41,072 nt of DNA, from the sequence record OZ035752.1; one strand, 5' to 3'. Source of the DNA: Kagunavirus LF7074P1. The notes below the pieces were generated by a model. That model was not told where the DNA came from. It was given only the letters and a program-made list of their open reading frames with translations, and did not search any database. Positions 2,796 to 40,337 of the stretch are shown one piece after another. Made by a program: the position numbers and the translations under genes. Within the stretch, counting starts at the first letter, position 1; every line of letters begins with the position of its first letter.

Positions 2796-2816
2796 AGCCC
2801 CGAAAGGGGCTTTCTT
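2796..2816 (+). terminator. terminator-like hairpin
   Basis: AGCCCC-GAAA-GGGGCT stem-loop followed by TTCTT; same stem-loop recurs at 4364-4381. Confidence 0.45.
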
Positions 2817-2821
2817 ATAGT

Positions 2822-3898
2822 ATGCTATTAACTTTAGCGCCACAGGGTTTATCTATGAGCTTACTTACATCACTAATCAGCCACCAGATATGGCTGCAAC
2901 GAACCGCATCCGGTGAGGTGAAAGACCTCGCGCCGTTCATTAAGGAGATGCGGGACGAAATCAAACGGCAGGTGCTGCTATTCGGCGACGGCGGTCGCAG
3001 CACTGCGCGACTGAATAAACTGTTACGTGACCTTGAAGAAGCACTGACAGGACTTACTGGTGACTGGCAAACAAAGCTGGCAGAAGACCTCAAGGAACTG
3101 GCGGTGTATGAAGCTGAGTGGAACGTAAAGACCCTGACCGCCAACGTAGATGCGGAATTTGTTACGCCCACCGCCGAACAGGTGTGGGCCGCTGCTGAGT
3201 TTCAGCCATTATCATTGAGTGGCAAGCCAGTTGATTTCACTAAACTGATGTCAGGTTGGGGTGAAACGGAAGTAGCACGTCTTGTAACCGGCGTTAAGAT
3301 GGGCTTTGTACAAGGTCAAACAACACGGCAGATTGTTAAGAATGTAGTAGGCGCCGGTGGGCTGGCTGACATCTCTGAGCGTAACGCCGCTACCGTCATC
3401 CGCACCGCGCTGTCTCACGTGTCCAACGAAGCCCGTAACGAGACGTACCGCCAGAACGACGACATCATCGAGAAGTACGAGTGGGTGTCAACGCTGGACA
3501 GCCGTACCAGTACGATTTGCAGAGCCAGAGACGGAATGACGTGGGAAATTGGTAAAGGGCCGATGCCCCCTGCCCATCCGAACTGCCGGTCGTGCACGGC
3601 TCCGGTAATCAGTTCCGAGTTCGACTTCCTCGATAAAGGCGCAAAACGCGCGGCTAAGGGCGCCGAAGGCGGTACTCAGGTAAGTGCGGACACCACCTAT
3701 TACGAGTTCCTGAAACAACAACCGGCATGGTTTCAGGACCAGGCGCTCGGCCCTGTTCGCGGTAAGATTTTCCGTAACAGCGGTATATCGCCGGAAGAGT
3801 TTCGCGTAATATCTGTAGATGGTTTCGGGAACCCGCTGACGCTTAAGCAGATGGCGGAACTCGATAAACGTGTTGCTGATTATCTGAAAGGGGAATAA
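2822..3898 (+). CDS. minor head / head morphogenesis protein (putative)
   Basis: 358-aa ORF directly after portal (position of Mu F / SPP1 gp7-type genes); in-frame alternative ATG at 2855; stop overlaps next start (TAATG). Confidence 0.5.
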   Translation: MLLTLAPQGLSMSLLTSLISHQIWLQRTASGEVKDLAPFIKEMRDEIKRQVLLFGDGGRSTARLNKLLRDLEEALTGLTGDWQTKLAEDLKELAVYEAEWNVKTLTANVDAEFVTPTAEQVWAAAEFQPLSLSGKPVDFTKLMSGWGETEVARLVTGVKMGFVQGQTTRQIVKNVVGAGGLADISERNAATVIRTALSHVSNEARNETYRQNDDIIEKYEWVSTLDSRTSTICRARDGMTWEIGKGPMPPAHPNCRSCTAPVISSEFDFLDKGAKRAAKGAEGGTQVSADTTYYEFLKQQPAWFQDQALGPVRGKIFRNSGISPEEFRVISVDGFGNPLTLKQMAELDKRVADYLKGE

Positions 3899-4423: not shown

Positions 4424-4477
4424 ATGTTGGAATAAACTATTCGAATAGTTGACTTTTCACCAAAAATGTGCTAAGCT
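4424..4477 (+). promoter_or_regulatory. promoter-like element with upstream palindromic site
   Basis: half-sites GAATAA (4430-4435), CTATTC (4437-4442), GAATAG (4443-4448) including perfect palindrome AACTATTCGAATAGTT (4435-4450) abutting -35 TTGACT (4449-4454); 17-bp spacer; TGc-TAAGCT extended -10-like (4469-4477). Confidence 0.4.
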
Positions 4478-5206: not shown

Positions 5207-5253
5207 ATGTTGGAATAATTTATTCTTGACATGTAAATCCGGGTGGCCCGGAT
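5207..5253 (+). promoter_or_regulatory. promoter-like element / palindromes upstream of scaffold gene
   Basis: block ATGTTGGAATAAtTTATTC (palindrome GAATAA-t-TTATTC 5213-5225) homologous to 4424-4442, followed by TTGACA (5226-5231) and inverted repeat ATCCGGG-tgg-CCCGGAT (5237-5253). Confidence 0.35.
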
Positions 5254-11153: not shown

Positions 11154-11638
11154 TATTTATCACTCCCATGTGGTTTTAAGTGTGTAGAGTTCCCGTTACA
11201 GTCGTATTCAGTAACTGCGTGAGTGGTTATGCCGAGTTCGCGGAAATGCTTTATTACCGCTGGAGAGTCGTCGAATGCACACAAGATTCTCTCCGGCCCA
11301 ATAGCACGCAACACCTCTTCTTTAATTACGATGTCTTTTCTGTTGTCGTGTTTGCTGCGCATGATTAACTGATAAAATTCGACGCGGTGGCGCTGCAACC
11401 ACATTCTGGTTTCTTTTTCCGCGTCATCACTACGGCCTGTTAAGATAATAACGGCATAGCGACGATTAAGGGCGTTACACAGTTCGATGTTATCTTTAAT
11501 GGGTGCATCGTCTTTGCACGCCATGTTAAATGGTTTCCACGCCCAGGTTTCGCCGTAGTTATCTTTCGGCAGCAGGTGTAAACGATGAGCACCATCTGCC
11601 AATGTCCCGTCTAAATCGAAAATCACAATATCTTTCAT
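11153..11638 (-). CDS. HAD-superfamily phosphatase
   Basis: 161 aa; N-terminal motif I FDLDGTLAD (DxDxT); ATGA overlap with upstream gene. Confidence 0.65.
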   Translation of the reverse strand: MKDIVIFDLDGTLADGAHRLHLLPKDNYGETWAWKPFNMACKDDAPIKDNIELCNALNRRYAVIILTGRSDDAEKETRMWLQRHRVEFYQLIMRSKHDNRKDIVIKEEVLRAIGPERILCAFDDSPAVIKHFRELGITTHAVTEYDCNGNSTHLKPHGSDK

Positions 11639-12771
11639 CCAAGCATCTCCGGTGAAATAGTTAAACGTGCGACCTCGCCATATTCGGCGCTATAAGTAAT
11701 TACGTTTGCACTGCGGCCCGACATCCACCCACCGCGGGAGGCATATGCATCTTTAGCCGCGAGAGTGCGGTGTTGCTCAACAATCATGTTACGGCTTTCT
11801 ACAATCTTTTGGTGGTGCAGGTGACCCACGTGGGCGTAGCTGTAAACACTCTCTCCGAACGCTTTGCGGAACTTGGCGATCATAACCGGTTCGATAGCGT
11901 CGAATCGTGCTTTATGCCCATGATGGAAGAACAGCGTCGTTTTGCCGTGTTGCACCATCTTGTAAACATCCGGCGACGTATCGACGAACACACGCGGCTC
12001 ATTGTCGTACAGCGTACTAAACATCTCAGCTAACCAAATCATTCCGCTTTCGTCGTGGTTACCTTGCACGATAAGCAAGCGAACATTTTTATGTTTAACG
12101 AGAGCCATATCAATGACACGGCGGACCATACGAATCATGTAGCGTACAAGTTTCTGATAGCGGGTGTCAGCGTCAAGAACATGGCCACTTGCGGGTGTAA
12201 CGGCATCCAGACTATCGAAGTGCGCGAAGTCACCTAGCAGGTTAATAACTCCTGTTCCCGCATCTGGCGCTTTCTGAAACGCTGCGTCGAACCATCGAGA
12301 GAACAGGTCTTCTGCGATTTTCATATCCCAGTCGTCGCCGCTCTCGTCGGCCCATGCCAGCATACCGAGATGAAAATCAGATACAGTGTAAAGATTGAGT
12401 AGCTTGTCGTCACGTTTGGTGCGCACGGCTTTAACCGGCGCAACGGGGGTAATCTCTGACTTCATGCCCTCAATTACGGCTTTCATAGCCTCTAACTGTT
12501 TCTCTTTATCCGGCTCGGAAATCACCCACGTCATCACCTCTTCGCCATTAGCCTTTACGCAAGCGGATATTCTTTTAGCAGAGAACCCTTCCGCTATGCG
12601 TTTGGATATTACTGGGTCGTTCCCGTGACCTATGCCCTTCTTGGCTAATCGTGCTTTACGGATACGAATTACGCGGTCTGAGATGCCGTATTTACGGGCG
12701 ATGTCTATATTCCTCATCCCGGCGCTCAATTCTTCCTGTAACTGTTCGTCGGTTATTTTCTTCTGGGCCAT
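11635..12771 (-). CDS. HTH-fused calcineurin-like metallophosphoesterase (SbcD/Mre11-like motifs)
   Basis: 378 aa from ATG 12771 (RBS GAGGAAG); N-terminal HTH (NIDIARKYGISDRVIRIRKARL); motifs SDFHLG, LLGDFAHFD, QGNHDE, HHGH, GHLHH; ORF-track start 12876 would overlap the imm-like gene. Confidence 0.65.
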   Translation of the reverse strand: MAQKKITDEQLQEELSAGMRNIDIARKYGISDRVIRIRKARLAKKGIGHGNDPVISKRIAEGFSAKRISACVKANGEEVMTWVISEPDKEKQLEAMKAVIEGMKSEITPVAPVKAVRTKRDDKLLNLYTVSDFHLGMLAWADESGDDWDMKIAEDLFSRWFDAAFQKAPDAGTGVINLLGDFAHFDSLDAVTPASGHVLDADTRYQKLVRYMIRMVRRVIDMALVKHKNVRLLIVQGNHDESGMIWLAEMFSTLYDNEPRVFVDTSPDVYKMVQHGKTTLFFHHGHKARFDAIEPVMIAKFRKAFGESVYSYAHVGHLHHQKIVESRNMIVEQHRTLAAKDAYASRGGWMSGRSANVITYSAEYGEVARLTISPEMLG

Positions 12772-13016: not shown

Positions 13017-13031
13017 TGTTGGTGTAAGTGA

Positions 13032-13060
13032 ATAGTACCCTATTATATTGGGGTGTGCAA
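13032..13060 (-). promoter_or_regulatory. sigma70-like promoter with palindromic operator
   Basis: minus-strand TTGCAC-17 bp-TACTAT; operator AATAG-N4-CTATT at 13031-13044; near-identical to plus-strand promoter at 35040-35068. Confidence 0.55.
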
Positions 13061-25429: not shown

Positions 25430-25717
25430 TTAACTATAATAGCCCGCTATTAGGTCGTCAACCTGTTTAAACGAACCAACGACAAAAACATTTGCACCAC
25501 GTTTACGCATCCGCTCGTGCTCTCGTAACTGGTGCGGGTCCGGCTTCGTGTTTTCGTCTTTCTTAACCTCGACGAACCAGATGATGCCACCAGGGAGAAT
25601 TACCAGCAGGTCGGGGGCGCCCGCTCTATTTTCGTACGACAATTTGCGTACGAGGCCTCCCAGGGCCTCGAATCGCTCTTTTGCGTATTTCTGCACGCGC
25701 CCCTCAGGCGTACTCAT
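25430..25717 (-). CDS. VRR-NUC domain nuclease (putative)
   Basis: 95 aa; PD-(D/E)xK-type residues in APDLLVI..FVEVKK. Confidence 0.6.
   Translation of the reverse strand: MSTPEGRVQKYAKERFEALGGLVRKLSYENRAGAPDLLVILPGGIIWFVEVKKDENTKPDPHQLREHERMRKRGANVFVVGSFKQVDDLIAGYYS
25433..25461 (-). promoter_or_regulatory. sigma70-like promoter with palindromic operator
   Basis: minus-strand TTGACG-17 bp-TATAGT; operator AATAG-N4-CTATT at 25438-25451; overlaps 3' end of VRR-NUC gene. Confidence 0.5.
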
Positions 25718-28920: not shown

Positions 28921-28949
28921 ACTATAATAGCTAACTATTCAGGTGTCAA
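28921..28949 (-). promoter_or_regulatory. sigma70-like promoter with palindromic operator
   Basis: minus-strand TTGACA-17 bp-TATAGT; operator AATAG-N4-CTATT at 28926-28939. Confidence 0.55.
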
Positions 28950-30584: not shown

Positions 30585-30838
30585 TGATCAATTAAATGTC
30601 GTGTCTTATGGTCGCAGTGCATAGCCCAGCTGTACATCGGCTCAAAGACATAAAAGTCAGGCTTGGCGAATGTCGTGCGCTTAATCTGCGACACGTGACG
30701 GCCTATATCTTTAGACAGCGGTACTTTGCCTAAGTACGCCATCTCTTCCATCTGGTGTGCACCGGACGGCGCACGCAATAACCATAGCGCCTCTGTGGTA
30801 TCCCGCCGGTCAACGGCGCGGTATAGTTGGTAAATCAT
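30566..30838 (-). CDS. hypothetical protein (90 aa)
   Basis: RBS GAGGG; overlaps downstream ORF. Confidence 0.5.
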   Translation of the reverse strand: MIYQLYRAVDRRDTTEALWLLRAPSGAHQMEEMAYLGKVPLSKDIGRHVSQIKRTTFAKPDFYVFEPMYSWAMHCDHKTRHLIDQWENRV

Positions 30839-30858
30839 AATCCCGACCCTCAGTTAAA

Positions 30859-30874
30859 GCGGCCCGAAGGCCGC
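30859..30874 (-). other. intergenic stem-loop
   Basis: GCGGCC-CGAA-GGCCGC between first and second genes of leftward operon; weak U-tract on minus strand. Confidence 0.4.
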
Positions 30875-30881
30875 GGGATAG

Positions 30882-31391
30882 TTATTCTTCTTCGAAATAC
30901 TTGTTCTTGATTGCTGTCAGGCGCTCCAGATACTCAGCCAGGTCTTCGTCTTTAATCGCTGCAATCTTCATCTTCTTACCGGTAAACTCTTCCAGCAGTT
31001 CGTCAGAATCGTCGCACGCGGCATCGCTTGGGCCTTCGTTAATCGCATCGTCGATAGCCTGAATCTGGTCGCGCAGAGACTGGTAATCGACTTCTTCTTT
31101 CTCTTCTTCCGGCTCTGGCGTTGGCTCCTCTACTTTAGCTTTACGCGGCTTGCGTTTCGGCTTCTCTTCTTCCGCAGGTTTAGTGTCAACGAGGTCCTCG
31201 CCTTCGACCGGGATTTCTTTCCCGACGCCAGTGCCTGGGTCGACTTCAAGCACCTCTCCGGTAACCGATACATCTACAAGCATTTCACCTACACACTCAG
31301 TTGACGGCATCGGTCGTTTCGCGCTGTTCGCAGCAATCAGTTCATGCGCAACTACGAAACGTTCCAGTAATACTAAGAATTTCTCTAACAT
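30882..31391 (-). CDS. acidic early protein (hypothetical)
   Basis: 169 aa; Glu/Asp-rich C-terminal half; first gene after promoter 31423-31451; leader contains AAACGAGAGGAG. Confidence 0.6.
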   Translation of the reverse strand: MLEKFLVLLERFVVAHELIAANSAKRPMPSTECVGEMLVDVSVTGEVLEVDPGTGVGKEIPVEGEDLVDTKPAEEEKPKRKPRKAKVEEPTPEPEEEKEEVDYQSLRDQIQAIDDAINEGPSDAACDDSDELLEEFTGKKMKIAAIKDEDLAEYLERLTAIKNKYFEEE

Positions 31392-31422
31392 TATTTATTC
31401 TCCTCTCGTTTGGTATGGGCTA

Positions 31423-31451
31423 ACTATAATAGCGAACTATTCACTTGTCAA
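31423..31451 (-). promoter_or_regulatory. sigma70-like promoter with palindromic operator
   Basis: minus-strand TTGACA-17 bp-TATAGT; operator AATAG-N4-CTATT at 31428-31441. Confidence 0.55.
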
Positions 31452-31470
31452 TGGGCTTTTCTAAAATAAT

Positions 31471-31484
31471 TAATATGGTACTAT
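31471..31484 (+). promoter_or_regulatory. extended -10 promoter-like element
   Basis: TGgTACTAT with operator-like AATAT-N4-CTATT; about 30 nt upstream of HTH gene. Confidence 0.35.
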
Positions 31485-31515
31485 TCACATATCAACTGAC
31501 TAAGGAGTAATTGAC

Positions 31516-31731
31516 ATGCAACCATCTGAACTAGGCATCCGTGTAGAGCAACGCCGTAAAGAACTCGGTATCTCCCAGCGCCATCTGGCTGTCCTGGCCG
31601 GTGTTTCCCAAGGCGCGATTAACCAGCTGGCACTTGGAGTAACTCAGGACGTCCGCCCGGCGACGCTGTTTAAACTGGCGGAAGTGCTGGAAGTAGACGC
31701 CAAGTGGCTGGCGTTCGGTGAAGGGGCTTAA
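31516..31731 (+). CDS. XRE-family HTH transcriptional regulator (Cro/CI-like)
   Basis: 71 aa; RBS AAGGAG 8 nt upstream; HTH ELGISQRHLAVLAGVSQGAINQ. Confidence 0.75.
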   Translation: MQPSELGIRVEQRRKELGISQRHLAVLAGVSQGAINQLALGVTQDVRPATLFKLAEVLEVDAKWLAFGEGA

Positions 31732-31745
31732 CGCCCCTTTCTTTT
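31721..31745 (+). terminator. intrinsic terminator
   Basis: AAGGGGC-TTAAC-GCCCCTT followed by TCTTTTT; overlaps stop codon of HTH gene. Confidence 0.6.
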
Positions 31746-31748
31746 TAC

Positions 31749-33956
31749 CTATTCCAAATCCTCTTCTGTCACCACCAGCATTTCATTCGGTTCGTATATT
31801 GTCTTCGGTCTTAGTCTATCCCCTATTCTTTCAGGTATACGATACGTTCTCGGTACTACTTCGCCATTAGCATCACAGCCTAGCATTAGTTCACCATCTT
31901 TCAGCATTTTATCAAGATGGGTGTTAGTCACAGAAAAGTCACCGGAACGGGCCACTATCTGCTGCTGAGTAAAACCGCGACCTGTGTCATCTGACTGTTG
32001 CAGGTCTTCCAGTGCCGAAAGTATCGACTCCTTCCTTACTTCATCCCTGCCGCGTTTAACTTCTTCCTTTACTTTTTGTTTACCTTCGTTAGTTAACCCT
32101 TCTTCCCGCTCTTTCTCCTCGTCAGTTTTGAACGGCTCGAAGCCCCACGGCATCAGAACAAGCGCCTTGTGTGGTTCCGGCAGGTCGAGGTTTACGATTG
32201 TGCCGTATTCCTCTGTGCTGCCCAAGAACTCAACAGCACGGTACTCTTTCGGCGGTGGTGCTTCACGGAACTGTACAGACTCAAGTACCATGCCAACCGT
32301 TTTCTGTTGAGGCCCGTGCTTAAATTTCGAGTGGTATACGTTTATCTGACGGTCGGTTGCACGTTCTATTGTCAGTTCCACATCGACACCCGCATACAGC
32401 GCCCCGCTGCCACGGGCTTTCTTTCCGCCCTTCGGTGTATGGTGGACGACGCCCACCGCGGCTTTAGTTGCGTCACGTACTTCTTTAAGGATGGCGATAA
32501 CTTTACCCATGCCGATTGCCGTTGATGAACTGTTCTCGTCGAACTTATCAATCGTCATGGCCAGTGTCTGGTTAAGGGTGTCGAACGCAACCATCCCAAT
32601 TGGCTCGTCACCCGCAGTTTCTCGCATTAGCTTAATCAGGCTTTTCAGTTTGCCAACTTCGCCCATATCGATGACATGTACATAATCTTTACCTTCCTCG
32701 CCGTATTTAGCCGCGAGTGCATCAATACGGGTGCGTGTGGCAGCACCGCCCTCACCGTCAATATAGAAATGGTGGCAACGCTGTGTATCAGCGCCTGCAA
32801 ACCGGTACCCGGCGGCGCTCAGGTACATCATACCCAGCGTATAGAATGATTTATATGTGCCGGATTCCCCGACGATGTCCCAGATGCAATCCGACGGCAT
32901 GTACCCTTCAACGACGAAATCAGCCTTTACCGGTTCAGGTAACTCGTCATCGTCTTCAAGGTCTTCCAGTGTACAAGTTACAGGCTCCTCGTTCTCTGTG
33001 CGGTGCAGTTCTTCAATCTCTTCATCCGGTAAATCAGGCAGAGCCGCACGAATGCTGTTAATACTGATAGGTTGCTTGTCTACGTTAAGCTCGTCCGGAA
33101 GGCCGCACATACGCAGGGCCAAATGTTGTCGGCGGTTAAGCTCAGTGCAAGCACCGTTGTTTGTGTGCTGGCACACGAAGCGCACTTCTTTACCGTCGAG
33201 CATGATGCTGGTGGAGCCTTTGCCGGTGTGCAGGTGTTCGTTAGGGCAAGGCACTTCGTACCCGCGACCGGAAGATAAAGCGTCAAGGCCAAGCTCCGCT
33301 TCGCAGAAATGCGCTATATCCGCGTTAAGCCCATGCTCATCGGCAGCAAGGGTCTTAGCTTCACGCTTACGCAACCCCATTTCTTCGGCTTTCTTGATGT
33401 ACCGCTCGGCACGGATAACACGCCCTTCTGTAACCGTTATCTTCGACTCTTTATGCGGCAGGTAGATAAGGCGGTTGCCATCTTCTGTGCAGTGGTCGCG
33501 CAATGCTTCGTCTATTTCTAACTCAGCACAAATAGCACGTTGCACCATCCACGCGTCGTTAGAGTTAAACGGCGTGCGGGCCGGTACAAGAACGCGGAAA
33601 GCGTAGTCACCGTTTTTACACGCGTGCTGGTGCGACGCCGTTGTGTGCAGAATATTGAAGAACGGCGCGTTCTTGAATTTGCGGGTGAGGTCGCGGTACT
33701 GGGTACGGTTTAGATGGTCGAAATCGAACTTAACCACACTGTCTTCCAGAATCGCGTTCTTACGGCGACCGCCAACCGGCGCAATAGCTTTCTGCTTAAT
33801 CTTGGCCGCGTCGTACTCTTCCTTAGTCCATGACGGGTCTACGGACAGACGCTTCGATGTATCGCAGACATACTCTACAAACTGCTCCAGTGGCATTTCA
33901 CGGGCTACCGGGTTTTTATCGAAAGTGTTACGCAGCGTTGCAAAAACAATATTCAT
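31749..33956 (-). CDS. primase-polymerase / helicase (AEP-like N-terminus, Cys cluster, P-loop ATPase)
   Basis: 735 aa; VVKFDFDH (hhhDxD-like); CPNEH..C..H..C cluster; Walker A GESGTYKS. Confidence 0.65.
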   Translation of the reverse strand: MNIVFATLRNTFDKNPVAREMPLEQFVEYVCDTSKRLSVDPSWTKEEYDAAKIKQKAIAPVGGRRKNAILEDSVVKFDFDHLNRTQYRDLTRKFKNAPFFNILHTTASHQHACKNGDYAFRVLVPARTPFNSNDAWMVQRAICAELEIDEALRDHCTEDGNRLIYLPHKESKITVTEGRVIRAERYIKKAEEMGLRKREAKTLAADEHGLNADIAHFCEAELGLDALSSGRGYEVPCPNEHLHTGKGSTSIMLDGKEVRFVCQHTNNGACTELNRRQHLALRMCGLPDELNVDKQPISINSIRAALPDLPDEEIEELHRTENEEPVTCTLEDLEDDDELPEPVKADFVVEGYMPSDCIWDIVGESGTYKSFYTLGMMYLSAAGYRFAGADTQRCHHFYIDGEGGAATRTRIDALAAKYGEEGKDYVHVIDMGEVGKLKSLIKLMRETAGDEPIGMVAFDTLNQTLAMTIDKFDENSSSTAIGMGKVIAILKEVRDATKAAVGVVHHTPKGGKKARGSGALYAGVDVELTIERATDRQINVYHSKFKHGPQQKTVGMVLESVQFREAPPPKEYRAVEFLGSTEEYGTIVNLDLPEPHKALVLMPWGFEPFKTDEEKEREEGLTNEGKQKVKEEVKRGRDEVRKESILSALEDLQQSDDTGRGFTQQQIVARSGDFSVTNTHLDKMLKDGELMLGCDANGEVVPRTYRIPERIGDRLRPKTIYEPNEMLVVTEEDLE

Positions 33957-34081
33957 TTCTTTTTCTCCGCGCGTTCTAAGGCTTCCTGCATACGACGCAT
34001 TGCGCGGTTCATCTTTACCGGTGCGAAGAAATCAGCGCCGTGTTTCTGGCGGCGCAACTGTGGAACTATTAACTTCGTCAT
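33953..34081 (-). CDS. hypothetical small basic protein (42 aa)
   Basis: not in ORF track; RBS AAGGA; stop overlaps primase start (ATGA). Confidence 0.35.
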   Translation of the reverse strand: MTKLIVPQLRRQKHGADFFAPVKMNRAMRRMQEALERAEKKK

Positions 34082-34150
34082 TGTATAATCCTTGTGCTTA
34101 CTTTGATGATTTGTGCTTCGGCCCCGACGTTCTAGCGTTGGGGTTTCTTT

Positions 34151-34441
34151 TTACCGTTTAGCCAACTCTTCCAGCAAATTTTTATACTCTTCAAAATATT
34201 CCTCGACCAAATCATCGCCGAAATAGAAGTCGATATACTCGAGATTATCTCTTACGTTAAGCGACGCAGACATGGTGCTTAGTTGGCGTAAGCTAATTAG
34301 CTTCATTTCTGTTTCTACACAGAAAGGCCGGTAGGTATCGAGGTGGCAAGAGATGTTGAAGCATAAAGCGAACTCTCCCGCCACGGAGTGAACCATATAC
34401 ACTTCGTTTTCTGCTTTATTGTGGAAAATTACACCTTTCAT
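34151..34441 (-). CDS. hypothetical protein (96 aa)
   Basis: ORF with ATGA overlap to upstream HTH gene. Confidence 0.5.
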   Translation of the reverse strand: MKGVIFHNKAENEVYMVHSVAGEFALCFNISCHLDTYRPFCVETEMKLISLRQLSTMSASLNVRDNLEYIDFYFGDDLVEEYFEEYKNLLEELAKR

Positions 34442-34620
34442 TTCACATTCTCCTTAATCCATTCTTCAACTTTATTACGGTCAAATGTACCTGGTAAACG
34501 GCGACCCATAACCTTAATACAACAATCAGGGAATTTACCACTGCGCAACCAGTTATTAATTGTCTGACGTGTTACCCCAATACGCTCGGCTACTTCATTC
34601 TGGGTCATGTAATGTTGCAT
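34438..34620 (-). CDS. small HTH DNA-binding protein (Cro/excisionase-like)
   Basis: 60 aa from ATG 34620 (RBS AGGAG 8 nt upstream); HTH VAERIGVTRQTINNWL; ORF-track start 34734 lacks RBS and would overlap promoters. Confidence 0.55.
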   Translation of the reverse strand: MQHYMTQNEVAERIGVTRQTINNWLRSGKFPDCCIKVMGRRLPGTFDRNKVEEWIKENVK

Positions 34621-34651
34621 TTTTATATCTCCTGTTTGTTTGGTGAAGCTG

Positions 34652-34680
34652 AGTATAGGATAGCGGGAATGTAAAAGCAA
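34652..34680 (-). promoter_or_regulatory. sigma70-like promoter (leftward early operon)
   Basis: minus-strand TTGCTT-17 bp-TATACT, about 30 nt upstream of HTH gene. Confidence 0.45.
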
Positions 34681-34717
34681 CCAATCCCTGCAATATTTAA
34701 TCTTTACAAAAAAGTTA

Positions 34718-34747
34718 TTGAAAGTTCTTGACACATGTTTGTATAAT
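34718..34747 (+). promoter_or_regulatory. sigma70-like promoter (rightward)
   Basis: TTGAAA-18 bp-TATAAT; divergent from 34652-34680. Confidence 0.55.
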
Positions 34748-34774
34748 GGTTTTGGGACTTGTATATATTACGGA

Positions 34775-34806
34775 GTTGACGAACCCTCCCTGAGGGATTC
34801 GTCAAC
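34775..34806 (+). other. long hairpin / inverted repeat in leader
   Basis: GTTGACGAA-CCCTC-cct-GAGGG-a-TTCGTCAAC, 14 bp stem with one bulge, about 20 nt after predicted start site. Confidence 0.6.
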
Positions 34807-34946
34807 CCCTCCCAGACAGCTGAGATGCTTGTTTTAGGGTTTAAGGATAAGTGTATCTAAATCTCATTTAAAGAAGTAACCCACTGAAATATCTACTGTT
34901 TCTTAATGTGCCGTAGATTCGCAACCGTAAAAATGTAACGATTATT

Positions 34947-34972
34947 GGGCAGGCTTAAGGCCTGCCCTTTAG
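34947..34972 (+). terminator. terminator-like hairpin
   Basis: GGGCAGGC-TTAAG-GCCTGCCC followed by TTTAGTT. Confidence 0.5.
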
Positions 34973-35039: not shown

Positions 35040-35068
35040 TTGCACACCCCAACATAATAGGATACTAT
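35040..35068 (+). promoter_or_regulatory. sigma70-like promoter with palindromic operator
   Basis: TTGCAC-17 bp-TACTAT; operator AATAG-N4-CTATT at 35056-35069; leader AAACGAGACAGAGGAG. Confidence 0.55.
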
Positions 35069-35102
35069 TCACTTATCGAAACGAGACAGAGGAGTGAGGG
35101 TT

Positions 35103-36285: not shown

Positions 36286-36314
36286 TTGCACACTAAGATA
36301 GAATAGGCTACTAT
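36286..36314 (+). promoter_or_regulatory. sigma70-like promoter with palindromic operator
   Basis: TTGCAC-17 bp-TACTAT; operator GAATAG-N4-CTATTC at 36301-36316; leader AAACGAGAGGGGAG. Confidence 0.55.
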
Positions 36315-36345
36315 TCATTTACACAAACGAGAGGGGAGACAGAAT

Positions 36346-37124: not shown

Positions 37125-37328
37125 GTGGCGCAGAGATATTTATTACAAGGCGGTTTAATTGGACCGCACGATGCAGGTGATTGGGTTGGCTATGAAGATT
37201 ACGCAAAACTTGAGGCCGCCGTTATCGCATTACTTGCGGACATAAACCGACGCTACCCTGGAGAAGGGTTTAAGTGCCCGTTAATACTTAAACTCGCGGA
37301 GATTGTGGAACATGAGCCTGGCAACTGA
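37125..37328 (+). CDS. hypothetical protein
   Basis: GTG 37125 with RBS AGGAG 8 nt upstream (track start GTG 37119 too close to RBS). Confidence 0.45.
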   Translation: MAQRYLLQGGLIGPHDAGDWVGYEDYAKLEAAVIALLADINRRYPGEGFKCPLILKLAEIVEHEPGN

Positions 37329-37605
37329 CATCCTTAAACGCAGCGGCCTTGCGCCGCTGTCGCCGAGAGCTAAAACACAGATATACAAGCGCCGCCGTAA
37401 TGCACTGTACCCCGAGATTCAGGCCAGGCGCAAAGCGGTCCGCGCCTGTGGATTCCAGAACGGGAAGGCCGTGAATCTCGGTGAGTTTAAAACGCAGGAA
37501 CGTGCAGCTATCGCTAATCGGCTATTTAATTACTGGAAATCGCTGGGGTACGTGGATATTCCGACGAAACCACAGAGACGACAATACATCTGGCGGCATA
37601 AATAA
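37312..37605 (+). CDS. hypothetical basic protein
   Basis: ATG 37312 (track start 37303 is TTG). Confidence 0.5.
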   Translation: MSLATDILKRSGLAPLSPRAKTQIYKRRRNALYPEIQARRKAVRACGFQNGKAVNLGEFKTQERAAIANRLFNYWKSLGYVDIPTKPQRRQYIWRHK

Positions 37606-38818: not shown

Positions 38819-38838
38819 CTATTTTCTGCAATGACTAG

Positions 38839-38867
38839 TTGACTATTATCCTAGACCCTACTATATT
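38839..38867 (+). promoter_or_regulatory. sigma70-like promoter
   Basis: TTGACT-17 bp-TATATT; leader CGACAACGAGAACGGAG similar to other early leaders. Confidence 0.55.
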
Positions 38868-39933: not shown

Positions 39934-40104
39934 ATGTTCAGTGACATTAACACGGCAATCGAAGAAGCAATCTGGCGCCGCTACAACGGCGAGCAACAAC
40001 GGCACTTTTGCCTGGTGCAACGCGGTGACATGGTTGCCGTAGTGCAGGACCGCGATAACAAATATCCGAATGCGATGTGGACAACGAGGAATTTTGTAGG
40101 ATGA
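39934..40104 (+). CDS. hypothetical small protein (56 aa)
   Basis: not in ORF track; stop overlaps next ATG. Confidence 0.4.
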   Translation: MFSDINTAIEEAIWRRYNGEQQRHFCLVQRGDMVAVVQDRDNKYPNAMWTTRNFVG

Positions 40105-40337
40105 TTACCAGCATTCCGAACCTGATTAAAGAATACGGCACGATGGCGGAGACATGCCGACAAACCGGCATCAACGAAATGACGATTGCGAAGTACAGCA
40201 AAGACGTTGATTGTGAGCGGCATGTAATTTATAACAACCGTCTGATGACGCACGTTAAGACAAGCCCGGTGTTATTCACGCGCCGGGGTATCACTAAAAC
40301 AGAGCAACGAATCGCTAAAGAGGAGAGCGGGGAATGA
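40101..40337 (+). CDS. hypothetical protein with HTH-like segment
   Basis: 78 aa from ATG 40101 (track 40077); TMAETCRQTGINEMTIAKY resembles a helix-turn-helix. Confidence 0.45.
   Translation: MITSIPNLIKEYGTMAETCRQTGINEMTIAKYSKDVDCERHVIYNNRLMTHVKTSPVLFTRRGITKTEQRIAKEESGE

What the first reader, a model, noticed from the sequence alone, without database searches (positions are those of the whole stretch)
31445..31745. XRE-type HTH regulator transcribed against the flow of the leftward early operon, with its own promoter and terminator
The 71-aa HTH gene (31516-31731) is on the plus strand between two minus-strand operons. It has a strong RBS (AAGGAG), an extended -10-like element with a degenerate operator copy, and a terminator overlapping its stop codon. 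Its promoter region is back-to-back with the operator-bearing promoter of the acidic early gene, the architecture of a repressor/Cro-type switch, although no integrase is present in the window.
Basis: partly seen in the sequence, partly recalled or inferred. Interest (0 to 1): 0.4.

Follow-up and report, generated by a model that had tools for sequence, protein, structure and literature searches.

The report
Cro-like repressor gene of a lytic phage
This is a real, conserved 71-residue relative of the phage 434 Cro repressor in a strictly lytic E. coli phage (Kagunavirus). It most likely switches down about ten of the phage's own promoters through a shared 14-bp palindrome: an ordinary kind of regulator, already annotated in relatives, used genome-wide rather than as a lysis/lysogeny switch.

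Summary
The window is the whole genome of Kagunavirus LF7074P1, a lytic siphophage. ORF 31516-31731(+) is a Pfam HTH_3 protein. Its best solved relative is phage 434 Cro (also 71 aa, E 5.5e-7). It is under strong purifying selection (dN/dS 0.04-0.12) and matches 561 phage records. RBS, TGn-extended -10, terminator hairpin with the stop codon in its loop, and the back-to-back leftward promoter (TTGACA-17-TATAGT) with AATAG-N4-CTATT in its spacer are all present and conserved.

The protein is Cro-like, but this is not a local CI/Cro switch: there is no CI partner, no tripartite operator and no integrase. The palindrome occurs 11 times (0.93 expected). It lies inside about ten sigma-70 promoters, in three different registers, which points to a separate repressor site. 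Related lineages carry lineage-specific versions (AATAC-N4-GTATT, ATTAG-type, TTAGC-N2-GCTAA). The XRE protein is the only recognisable HTH shared by all lineages that carry it.

Best explanation: a 434-Cro-type dimeric repressor that governs most phage transcription units. Binding itself is inferred, not shown. The gene is already annotated as a repressor or regulator in relatives. A published paper reported the motif as "phage RNA polymerase promoters". Verdict: new member of a known kind, modest interest.

The parts
31516..31731 (+). XRE/Cro-type HTH gene, 71 aa (the stop codon TAA at 31729-31731 is included).
   Evidence: ORF. Pfam HTH_3, E 2e-11. Phage 434 Cro is the best solved relative: E 5.5e-7, query residues 6-68 aligned to Cro residues 4-64. 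dN/dS is 0.04-0.12. 561 phage records hold a match covering at least 80% of the protein.
31502..31507 (+). Ribosome-binding site AAGGAG, 8 nt upstream of the ATG.
   Evidence: Read directly from the sequence. It is conserved in nearly all Kagunavirus and Jerseyvirus variants.
31476..31484 (+). Probable promoter of the HTH gene: a TGn-extended -10 (TGgTACTAT). The -35 is poor in this genus.
   Evidence: Sequence. TGnTACTATTCACATATC is conserved in 35 Kagunavirus variants. Jerseyvirus has TTGCGT-17-TACTAT at the same place. The simple promoter scan does not call this site.
31472..31485 (.). Degenerate operator copy AATATGGTACTATT (one mismatch), overlapping the -10 of the HTH gene's own promoter.
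   Evidence: Found. The equivalent position in other lineages also holds only a degenerate site. The exception is lineage G6, where a perfect TTAG-N4-CTAA lies over the -35.
31428..31441 (.). Operator O_L: the exact palindrome AATAG-CGAA-CTATT, in the spacer of the leftward promoter.
   Evidence: Found. The half-sites are invariant in 35 Kagunavirus variants, while the central 4 bp vary (CGAA, CTAA, TGAA, CAAA, CGAG).
31423..31451 (-). Leftward promoter P_L: TTGACA, 17-nt spacer, TATAGT. It drives the acidic gene and the replication and recombination genes downstream of it.
   Evidence: Matches 11 of 12 consensus positions. A homologous promoter sits at the same place in every related lineage examined.
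31720..31746 (+). Intrinsic terminator of the HTH gene: an 8-bp stem, a loop that contains the stop codon, and a T-run. There is no T-run on the other strand.
   Evidence: Found. dG -14.9 kcal/mol, z -2.6. It is conserved, with a different stem sequence in Jerseyvirus.
30882..31391 (-). Acidic 169-aa protein (PHROG 3127, unknown function). It is the first gene of the leftward operon and lies divergent to the HTH gene in all lineages.
31749..33956 (-). Replicative helicase-primase gene, convergent with the HTH gene.
   Evidence: ORF. Pfam AAA_25. Annotated as helicase-primase in relatives.
13031..13044 (.). Exact operator over the -10 of a leftward promoter (TTGCAC-17-TACTAT). Polynucleotide kinase and dNMP kinase genes lie downstream; in Bas70 a DNA repair exonuclease gene is also annotated downstream of the corresponding promoter.
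25438..25451 (.). Exact operator in the spacer of a leftward promoter (TTGACG-17-TATAGT). A 476-aa ORF (DNA helicase in the Bas70 and Jersey annotations) and a primase-like gene lie downstream.
28926..28939 (.). Exact operator in the spacer of a leftward promoter (TTGACA-17-TATAGT). By position, the genes downstream correspond to the ssDNA-binding protein and DNA polymerase genes of Bas70 and Jersey.
35056..35069 (.). Exact operator over the -10 of a rightward promoter (TTGCAC-17-TACTAT) for small genes of unknown function.
36302..36315 (.). Exact operator over the -10 of a second rightward promoter (TTGCAC-17-TACTAT). Small genes lie downstream; by position relative to Bas70, the lysis genes follow them.
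38834..38847 (.). One-mismatch operator ACTAG-TTGA-CTATT that contains the -35 of a rightward promoter (TTGACT-17-TATATT). The promoter leads towards the terminase and structural genes.
   Evidence: The Jersey homologue is AATAGTTGACTAGT.
4444..4457 (.). One-mismatch operator AATAG-TTGA-CTTTT that contains the -35 of a candidate rightward promoter. By position relative to Bas70, it lies ahead of the spanin and capsid genes.
   Evidence: Site and context. The promoter is my reading of that context (TTGACT, 17 nt, TAAGCT); the scan does not list it.
2816..2829 (.). One-mismatch site TATAGTATGCTATT, just after the terminator that follows the 1292-2785 ORF (portal gene by position relative to Bas70). 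No leftward gene lies here, so it is possibly a relic.
   Evidence: Jersey has a leftward gene and an annotated promoter at the corresponding place.

Best explanation
**The gene.** It encodes a 434-Cro-type XRE helix-turn-helix protein. It is made as a monocistronic transcript from its own weak, extended -10 promoter and is ended by an intrinsic terminator.

**How it most likely works (inferred).**
- The protein binds as a dimer to the 14-bp palindrome AATAG-N4-CTATT.
- Copies of that palindrome lie inside the core of about ten sigma-70 promoters of the phage: over the -35, in the spacer, or over the -10.
- Binding would therefore exclude host RNA polymerase and turn those promoters down as the protein accumulates.

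**Which promoters carry which sites.**
- The six exact sites sit on the four leftward promoters of the replication, recombination and nucleotide-metabolism genes and on the two rightward promoters of small genes of unknown function.
- One-mismatch sites sit on the gene's own promoter and on the two promoters that lead into the structural genes.
- These weaker sites would be repressed less or later. This graded-affinity idea is speculation.

**What is shown and what is not.**
- Shown: the anatomy of the gene, its family, its conservation, and the enrichment, placement and lineage-specific evolution of the palindrome.
- Inferred: that this protein is what binds the palindrome, and that the effect is repression.
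For: **Family.**
- Pfam HTH_3.
- The best match among solved structures is 434 Cro: same length, E 5.5e-7, nearly end to end. The 434 repressor follows.
- The single-sequence AlphaFold model (pLDDT 75.8) matches HipB, 434 Cro, P22 c2, SinR and restriction-modification controller proteins with TM scores of 0.63-0.70.

**Site geometry.**
- 434 operators are 14 bp long. The outer 5+5 bp are contacted and the inner 4 bp are not (PMC1636474).
- This palindrome has the same 5-4-5 layout.
- In 35 Kagunavirus variants the half-sites never change, while the central 4 bp do.
- The first glutamine of the recognition helix (residue 32 here, aligned to Gln28 of 434 Cro) is invariant in all lineages examined, and the first base of the half-site is A in every AATAG-, AATAC- and ATTAG-type lineage.

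**Enrichment and placement.**
- 11 sites against 0.93 expected.
- Nine or ten of them lie inside sigma-70-like promoters.
- They occupy three different registers relative to the -35 and -10 hexamers. That marks the palindrome as an element separate from the promoter consensus, and all three positions would block RNA polymerase.

**Lineage specificity.**
- Jerseyvirus uses AATAG (7 sites against 1.3 expected).
- Pantoea phage AH01 uses AATAC-N4-GTATT: both halves have changed together, with 5 exact copies and 11 sites of the family against 2.07 expected.
- Cornellvirus uses ATTAG/ATTAC half-sites and has no AATAG site at all.
- A metagenomic lineage uses TTAGC-N2-GCTAA in its promoters, with a perfect TTAG-N4-CTAA over the -35 of the HTH gene's own promoter.
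- Jersey and VSiP both infect Salmonella enterica yet differ in half-site, so the binder is encoded by the phage, not the host.

**Exclusion of the other HTH candidates.**
- The Xis-like HTH_17 protein exists only in Kagunavirus and Jerseyvirus.
- AH01 has neither that protein nor a NinH-like protein, yet it has the operators.
- The XRE gene and the divergent operator-bearing promoter are present in every lineage.

**Selection.** dN/dS is 0.04-0.12.
Against: - There is no binding or expression experiment for this protein in any relative that I could find.
- The contact-position residues of the recognition helix differ between Kagunavirus (Q-G-A..N-Q) and Jerseyvirus (Q-S-L..T-H) although both use AATAG. 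Protein-to-site covariation is therefore suggestive, not clean.
- The changes in the operator also track overall genome divergence.
- The site on the gene's own promoter is only degenerate, and its right half is also the -10 hexamer.
- Other small DNA-binding proteins exist: NinH-like at 40077-40337, and an AP2-like protein within 37303-37605 that has relatives in several lineages, including AH01.
- The one transcriptome paper on a Kagunavirus (PMC12645636) classes the homologue (gene _004) as "middle" and gives no evidence of shut-off.
- If nearly all promoters are repressed, how the late genes stay on remains unexplained.
Confidence: 0.65

Rival explanations
1. The palindrome is bound by a different factor: the NinH-like protein, the AP2-like protein, the Xis-like HTH, or a host protein. 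The XRE protein would then regulate something narrower, such as only the divergent P_L promoter, its own promoter, or host genes.
For: - Other DNA-binding candidates exist.
- The AP2-like protein has relatives in several lineages, including AH01.
- Recognition-helix residues do not covary cleanly with the half-site.
Against: - The Xis-like protein is absent from lineages G3-G6, and the NinH-like protein is absent from AH01, yet the operators persist there.
- AP2 domains and Fis-like NinH proteins are not known to read 5-4-5 palindromes (general knowledge).
- A host factor is unlikely because two Salmonella phages use different half-sites.
- The site geometry is exactly that of the closest solved relative, 434 Cro/repressor.
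Confidence: 0.15
2. The protein acts mainly as an immunity or dormancy repressor (a CI-like role). By silencing nearly all phage promoters it would allow a carrier or pseudolysogenic state, or block superinfecting genomes, rather than timing the lytic programme.
For: - Operators sit on almost every transcription unit.
- The more distant homologues include N-terminal domains of CI-type repressors from temperate phages that carry long C-terminal extensions.
- GenBank records often call the gene "repressor".
Against: - The protein has no C-terminal oligomerisation or peptidase domain.
- No integrase or partition system is annotated in the close relative Bas70.
- These phages are described as strictly lytic (PMC9825357, PMC12919940).
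- The gene's own promoter looks weak, and no activating operator is positioned beside it.
Confidence: 0.1
3. The motif is a promoter for a phage-specific RNA polymerase or sigma factor, as PHIRE-based annotation implied for phage fBC-Eco01. In that case the HTH gene is unrelated to it.
For: PMC9825357 reports seven "phage-encoded RNA polymerase" promoters with the consensus tgAATAGTa-ccTATTat-T.
Against: - No RNA polymerase gene is annotated in Kagunavirus genomes.
- The motif is a palindrome.
- It sits at three different registers within good sigma-70 -35/-10 pairs.
- Its central 4 bp are free to vary.
Confidence: 0.03
4. The protein is an antitoxin (HipB/HigA-like), a restriction-modification controller protein, or an anti-defence decoy, rather than a regulator of phage promoters.
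For: Structural and profile matches include HipB, HigA and controller proteins.
Against: - No toxin or restriction-modification gene lies next to it, and the gene is monocistronic.
- These matches reflect the shared XRE fold.
- All NCBIfam hits are far below their cutoffs.
Confidence: 0.03

Closest known systems
Phage 434 Cro (and the DNA-binding domain of 434 repressor)
   Same: - Same length (71 aa) and about 38-41% identity over nearly the whole protein, with the same XRE fold.
- The first glutamine of the recognition helix is conserved. The residue aligned to Gln33 of 434 repressor is also Gln here.
- The candidate operator has the same 14-bp, 5-4-5 layout, with conserved outer bases and a free centre.
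- AATAG and the 434 half-site ACAAG share positions 1, 4 and 5 (the 434 sequence is from my own knowledge).
   Different: - There is no CI partner, no OR1-OR3 array and no lysogeny module.
- Single operators are spread over about ten promoters of a lytic phage.
- The divergent gene is an acidic protein of unknown function.
- The residue aligned to 434 Gln29 is Gly.
Lambdoid Cro proteins as early-transcription shut-off factors (lambda, P22, 434)
   Same: A small repressor, made during lytic growth, that turns down early promoters by occluding them.
   Different: Lambdoid Cro proteins act at two operator regions (OL and OR). Here the sites cover most transcription units, including those that lead into the late genes.
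XRE-family regulators in other lytic phages (for example the phiCbK XRE factor, PMC10688885)
   Same: An XRE transcription factor encoded by a non-temperate phage (title and abstract seen).
   Different: There is no sequence or operator relationship. I did not read that paper beyond its abstract.
Restriction-modification controller (C) proteins
   Same: XRE proteins of similar size that bind palindromic boxes overlapping promoters. They appear among the structural matches.
   Different: There is no adjacent restriction-modification system and no two-box activator/repressor arrangement.

Membership tests
XRE / Cro-C1-type HTH (Pfam HTH_3) | A profile match above the curated threshold. | tested here: met
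   HTH_3 scores 44.2 bits against a cutoff of 23. HTH_19 and HTH_31 are also above their cutoffs.
XRE / Cro-C1-type HTH (Pfam HTH_3) | A compact all-helical fold with helix-turn-helix at helices 2 and 3. | tested here: met
   The model has helices at residues 5-17, 21-28, 32-39 and 48-68 (pLDDT 75.8; single sequence, so only moderate quality). All top Foldseek matches are XRE-family proteins with TM scores of 0.63-0.70.
434 Cro-like repressors | Full-length sequence homology to 434 Cro or 434 repressor. | tested here: met
   E 5.5e-7 to 434 Cro (query residues 6-68 aligned to Cro residues 4-64) and E 1.3e-5 to 434 repressor.
434 Cro-like repressors | A cognate 14-bp two-fold symmetric operator with conserved outer 4-5 bp and a variable centre. 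| tested here: met
   A candidate site with this layout is enriched. Its half-sites are invariant and its centre varies across 35 variants. The layout of 434 operators is taken from PMC1636474. That this protein is the one that binds the site is inferred.
434 Cro-like repressors | Sequence-specific binding by a dimer, and repression. | not testable with these tools
   Needs gel-shift or footprinting assays and reporter assays.
Lambdoid CI/Cro bistable immunity switch | A divergently transcribed CI-type repressor gene (HTH plus a C-terminal S24 or oligomerisation domain). | tested here: not met
   The divergent gene encodes an acidic 169-aa protein with no Pfam match. It belongs to PHROG 3127, of unknown function.
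Lambdoid CI/Cro bistable immunity switch | Three adjacent operators shared by two opposing promoters. | tested here: not met
   There is one exact site (31428-31441) and one degenerate site (31472-31485), 44 bp apart centre to centre.
Lambdoid CI/Cro bistable immunity switch | An integrase or other lysogeny module in the genome. | tested here: not met
   The window is the whole genome. The curated annotation of the close relative Bas70 lists no integrase. An excisionase-like HTH_17 protein is present.
Type II antitoxin (HipB/HigA) | A co-transcribed toxin gene. | tested here: not met
   The gene is monocistronic, lying between its own promoter and terminator. The NCBIfam antitoxin models score far below their cutoffs.
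Restriction-modification controller protein | Adjacent restriction-modification genes under its control. | tested here: not met
   The neighbours are the helicase-primase gene and the acidic protein gene.

The most novel reading that the evidence does not exclude
A whole group of strictly lytic siphophages (Guernseyvirinae) may run most of its transcription programme with one Cro-sized repressor. Operators of graded quality would be embedded in nearly every sigma-70 promoter: perfect sites on the replication-gene and small-gene promoters, imperfect sites on its own promoter and on the promoters leading to the late genes. Timing would then come from operator affinity rather than from sigma factors or antiterminators. 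Operator and protein would have co-diversified into several specificities (AATAG, AATAC, ATTAG, TTAGC). A stronger version is that this global repressor allows a silent carrier state without any integrase.
Probability: 0.2. Interest if true: 0.55.

Novelty: new member of a known kind. Interest (0 to 1): 0.3.

Why it matters
**For this phage group.** Kagunavirus and Jerseyvirus phages are widely proposed for therapy and biocontrol. Their small genomes have been described as attractive for synthetic biology (PMC11990801).

**Reinterpreting a published motif.** If one small repressor and a 14-bp operator control most promoters, the repeated motif reported as "phage RNA polymerase promoters" (PMC9825357) needs a different reading.

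**Practical uses.**
- It would give a simple handle for engineering or silencing these phages: supplying the protein in trans should block infection.
- It would explain why genome screens flag a "repressor" in phages that are otherwise strictly lytic.
- The lineage-specific operator variants offer a natural set of protein and site pairs for studying how HTH specificity changes.

**Limits.** This is still an ordinary class of regulator. The gene is already annotated as a transcriptional regulator or repressor in many records.

Tried and rejected
**Other explanations tested.**
- **Xis-like HTH_17 protein (34441-34620, minus strand) as the binder.** Rejected as the general binder. It is found only in Kagunavirus and Jerseyvirus, while operator-type palindromes persist in lineages without it.
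- **NinH-like protein (40077-40337) as the binder.** Weakened. Pantoea phage AH01 has no homologue but has 11 sites.
- **Host factor.** Rejected, because Jersey and VSiP share a host species but use different half-sites.
- **The palindrome as a by-product of the promoter consensus.** Rejected, because it occupies three registers relative to the -35 and -10 hexamers and its centre varies freely.

**Checks that gave limited or no return.**
- **Clean covariation between recognition-helix residues and half-site bases.** Only partly seen. The leading Gln and the leading A are constant, while the other positions do not map one to one.
- **Rfam scan of the whole window.** No match.
- **Single-sequence structure model.** Only moderate confidence (pLDDT 75.8), and the Foldseek E-values are weak because the domain is small.
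- **Klebsiella phage 37P2.** The search for an equivalent palindrome found no enrichment of the AWTAS family (1 site against 1.1 expected), and I did not resolve what that lineage uses instead.
- **Transcriptome paper supplement.** It gave gene coordinates only, not expression values.
- **Large protein-database searches.** I did not run them, because the phage collections had already answered the question of distribution.
Full report
**Identity of the window.** A 1.2-kb query across the finding (window 30800-32000) is 100% identical to Kagunavirus LF7074P1 (OZ035758.1), a 41,071-bp record against a 41,072-base window. It matches 445 phage records, almost all of them Escherichia Kagunavirus and Salmonella Jerseyvirus. 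The window is therefore the complete genome of a small siphophage of the subfamily Guernseyvirinae. Papers on this group describe it as strictly lytic (PMC9825357; PMC12919940).

**Check of the observation.**
- **ORF and RBS.** The ORF at 31516-31731 (+) encodes 71 aa and is preceded by AAGGAG at 31502-31507.
- **Flanks.** Both neighbouring genes are on the minus strand. One is an acidic 169-aa gene (pI 4.38). The other is the 735-aa helicase-primase gene, whose stop codon lies 17 nt from the stop of the HTH gene.
- **Terminator.** A hairpin at 31720-31740 followed by a T-run was found by the scan. It folds at -14.9 kcal/mol with z -2.6. The TAA stop codon lies in its loop.
- **Terminator conservation.** The hairpin is kept in Kagunavirus. 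In Jerseyvirus it is kept with a different stem sequence and a TGA stop in the loop. That is good evidence that it is functional.
- **One direction only.** The opposite strand has no T-run after the hairpin. I infer that it terminates rightward transcription only, so leftward transcripts from the helicase-primase operon may run antisense through the HTH gene.
- **Own promoter.** The best candidate is TGgTACTAT (31476-31484), a TGn-extended -10 with a poor -35. The simple scan does not call it. It is nearly invariant in 35 Kagunavirus variants. Jerseyvirus has TTGCGT-17-TACTAT at the same place. Its -10 and initial transcribed sequence resemble the other TACTAT promoters of the phage.
- **Leftward promoter.** TTGACA-17-TATAGT (31451-31423) matches 11 of 12 consensus positions. 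The exact palindrome AATAGCGAACTATT fills its spacer.
- **Chance.** Pattern scans alone find no more promoter-like or terminator-like sites here than in shuffled sequence. Conservation carries the argument.

**What the protein is.**
- It matches Pfam HTH_3 at 44.2 bits against a cutoff of 23.
- Its best match among all solved structures is phage 434 Cro, which is also 71 residues long (E 5.5e-7, aligned nearly end to end). The 434 repressor DNA-binding domain follows.
- A single-sequence AlphaFold model (pLDDT 75.8) has four helices. It matches HipB, 434 Cro, P22 c2, SinR and restriction-modification controller proteins.
- NCBIfam gives only sub-threshold hits, the best being the N-terminus of DicA.
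- The gene is under strong purifying selection within Kagunavirus, with dN/dS of 0.04-0.12.
- tblastn finds it in 565 phage records, 561 of them covering at least 80% of the protein. In many of these it is annotated as "transcriptional repressor", "transcriptional regulator", "XRE family" or "DicA".
- A paper on Jerseyvirus phages lists it as a core regulatory gene (PMC8425127).
- I found no functional study of it.

**The palindrome is the more informative feature.** AATAG-N4-CTATT occurs 6 times exactly and 5 times with one mismatch, against 0.93 expected. In context, nine or ten of these sites lie inside sigma-70-like promoters, in three arrangements:
1. TTGACA-N4-AATAG-N4-CTATT-ATAGT. The site fills the spacer. 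These are the leftward promoters at 25438, 28926 and 31428.
2. TTGCAC-N10-AATAGGnTACTATT. The right half-site overlaps the -10. These are the promoters at 13031, 35056 and 36302, plus the degenerate copy on the HTH gene's own promoter.
3. AATAG-TTGA-CTATT. The -35 lies inside the site. These are the promoters at 38834 and 4444, each with one mismatch.

The same palindrome therefore sits at three registers relative to the polymerase-binding hexamers. It is thus an element in its own right, and all three positions would block RNA polymerase.

Across 35 Kagunavirus loci the half-sites are at least 90% conserved, and invariant at the leftward promoter. The central bases vary, and so does the distance to the -35.

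This 5-4-5 layout, with contacted outer bases and a free centre, is exactly that of the 14-bp operators of 434 (PMC1636474).

**Comparative evidence on who binds it.** I fetched whole genomes of Jersey, VSiP (Cornellvirus), phiEap-2, Bas70, 37P2, AH01 and TS33. I also fetched 64 viral-contig loci that encode relatives of the protein.

*Conserved arrangement.* In every lineage the HTH gene lies divergent to a homologue of the acidic gene, with a homologous leftward promoter between them.

*The palindrome family A[AT]TA[GC]-N4-[GC]TA[AT]T is enriched in five protein lineages, but its details differ:*
- Kagunavirus and Jerseyvirus use AATAG.
- AH01 and a metagenomic relative use AATAC-N4-GTATT. 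Both halves have changed together. AH01 has five exact copies and 11 sites of the family against 2.07 expected.
- phiEap-2 mixes AATAG and AATAC.
- Cornellvirus uses ATTAG/ATTAC and has no AATAG-type site (0 against 1.4 expected).
- A sixth lineage has TTAGC-N2-GCTAA in the same promoter position. It also has a perfect TTAG-N4-CTAA over the -35 of the HTH gene's own promoter.

*Inferences from this.*
- Jersey and VSiP both infect Salmonella enterica but differ in half-site, so the binder is encoded by the phage.
- Of the recognisable DNA-binding proteins, the excisionase-like HTH_17 protein exists only in Kagunavirus and Jerseyvirus.
- AH01 lacks both that protein and the NinH-like protein.
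- The XRE protein is the only recognisable HTH common to all operator-bearing lineages.
- An AP2-like small protein (within 37303-37605) also has relatives in several lineages and cannot be formally excluded, but a 14-bp two-fold symmetric site is not what that fold is known to read.

*Weak point.* Contact-position residues of the recognition helix differ between Kagunavirus and Jerseyvirus although the half-site is the same. Only the leading glutamine is constant, as is the leading A among the AATAG-, AATAC- and ATTAG-type lineages.

**Most likely mechanism.**
- *Shown:* a conserved, selected, monocistronic 434-Cro-like gene, and a phage-specific 14-bp palindrome embedded in the core of most sigma-70 promoters.
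- *Inferred:* the protein binds these sites as a dimer and represses.
- *Speculative:* the exact sites lie on the promoters of the replication, recombination and nucleotide-metabolism genes and of the small rightward genes of unknown function. The one-mismatch sites lie on the gene's own promoter and on the promoters leading to the structural genes. Repression could therefore be graded and help to time the programme.
- *Transcriptome data:* the only Kagunavirus transcriptome paper places the homologue (gene _004, 3386-3601 +) among "middle" genes and the Xis-like gene (_008) among four "early" genes (PMC12645636). This neither supports nor contradicts shut-off.

**Why this is not a CI/Cro switch.**
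- There is no CI-type partner.
- There is no triple operator.
- No integrase is annotated in the close relative Bas70.
- The position "between two minus-strand operons" is specific to this lineage. In Cornellvirus, phiEap-2, AH01, TS33 and two metagenomic lineages the helicase-primase gene (only about 30% identical) follows the HTH gene on the same strand.

**Relation to the literature.** The fBC-Eco01 paper reported the motif, with the consensus tgAATAGTa-ccTATTat-T, as seven promoters for a "phage-encoded RNA polymerase" predicted by PHIRE (PMC9825357). No RNA polymerase gene is annotated in the curated Kagunavirus genome Bas70. The palindromic form, the free centre and the variable register fit an operator much better.

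**Verdict.** The finding is real and correctly read as a Cro-type regulator with its own promoter and terminator. It is a new member of a very well-known kind, and relatives already annotate it as such. The modest added value is that its probable operator forms a genome-wide regulon and has diversified between lineages. Interest 0.3.

Noticed in passing
window 34718-34967 (+): A near-consensus promoter (TTGAAA-18-TATAAT, 11 of 12) is followed by about 220 nt with no plausible ORF. This stretch holds a long hairpin (about 34776-34806) and ends in an intrinsic terminator (34947-34967). It folds well (z -4.86), so it is a candidate small RNA or leader. It has no Rfam match. Only the last ~97 nt, including the terminator, are conserved widely among relatives. 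The promoter carries no AATAG-N4-CTATT site.
   Followed up: partly
window 4430-4442 and 5213-5225; L003 (phiEap-2) 11501-12682: A second palindrome family, (G)GAATA-N3-TATTC(C), clusters around the region that corresponds to the spanin and scaffold genes of relatives. phiEap-2 has four exact copies and the window has two. It may be the site of another regulator, perhaps of late genes.
   Followed up: no
window 31749-34734 (-) compared with L002 34828-37128, L003 37594-39897, L070 42850-45141: In Kagunavirus and Jerseyvirus the helicase-primase gene lies on the opposite strand to the HTH gene and travels with an excisionase-like HTH_17 gene. In the other lineages a helicase-primase gene only ~30% identical follows the HTH gene on the same strand, and no Xis-like gene is present. 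This looks like a module replacement or inversion.
   Followed up: partly
L004 (Bas70) 32694-32921 (-): Some Kagunaviruses carry an extra 75-aa cysteine-rich ORF between the leftward promoter and the acidic gene. The divergent promoter region is unchanged.
   Followed up: partly
window 2816-2829: An operator-like site with one mismatch lies just after the terminator that follows the 1292-2785 ORF (portal gene by position relative to Bas70). No leftward gene follows it. In phage Jersey a leftward amidase gene with an annotated promoter sits at the corresponding place, so this may be a relic.
   Followed up: no
window 31452-31475; the same position in L001, L002, L003, L048, L056 and L070: An A/T-rich block lies between the two divergent promoters, just upstream of the -35 of the leftward promoter. 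In the other lineages it reads GCACTTTAnnAAAATAnTTTT. It resembles an UP element.
   Followed up: no
window 37303-37605 (+): This ORF contains an AP2-like DNA-binding segment. It is homologous to AH01 gene 5 (annotated "DNA binding protein") and is conserved in several lineages. By position relative to Bas70 it lies just upstream of the holin genes.
   Followed up: partly
L043 (Jerseyvirus contig), 3' end of the XRE gene: One Jerseyvirus variant has lost the stop codon in the terminator loop, which extends the protein from 72 to 80 aa through the hairpin.
   Followed up: no
L069 (Klebsiella phage 37P2): This Guernseyvirinae phage has an XRE homologue with a different recognition helix (SQSALSF) and shows no enrichment of the AWTAS-N4-STAWT family. 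Other palindromes recur instead, for example CTCGCAAAATTTTGCGAG twice, and there is an ATACTATAGTAT palindrome in the XRE gene's own promoter region.
   Followed up: partly
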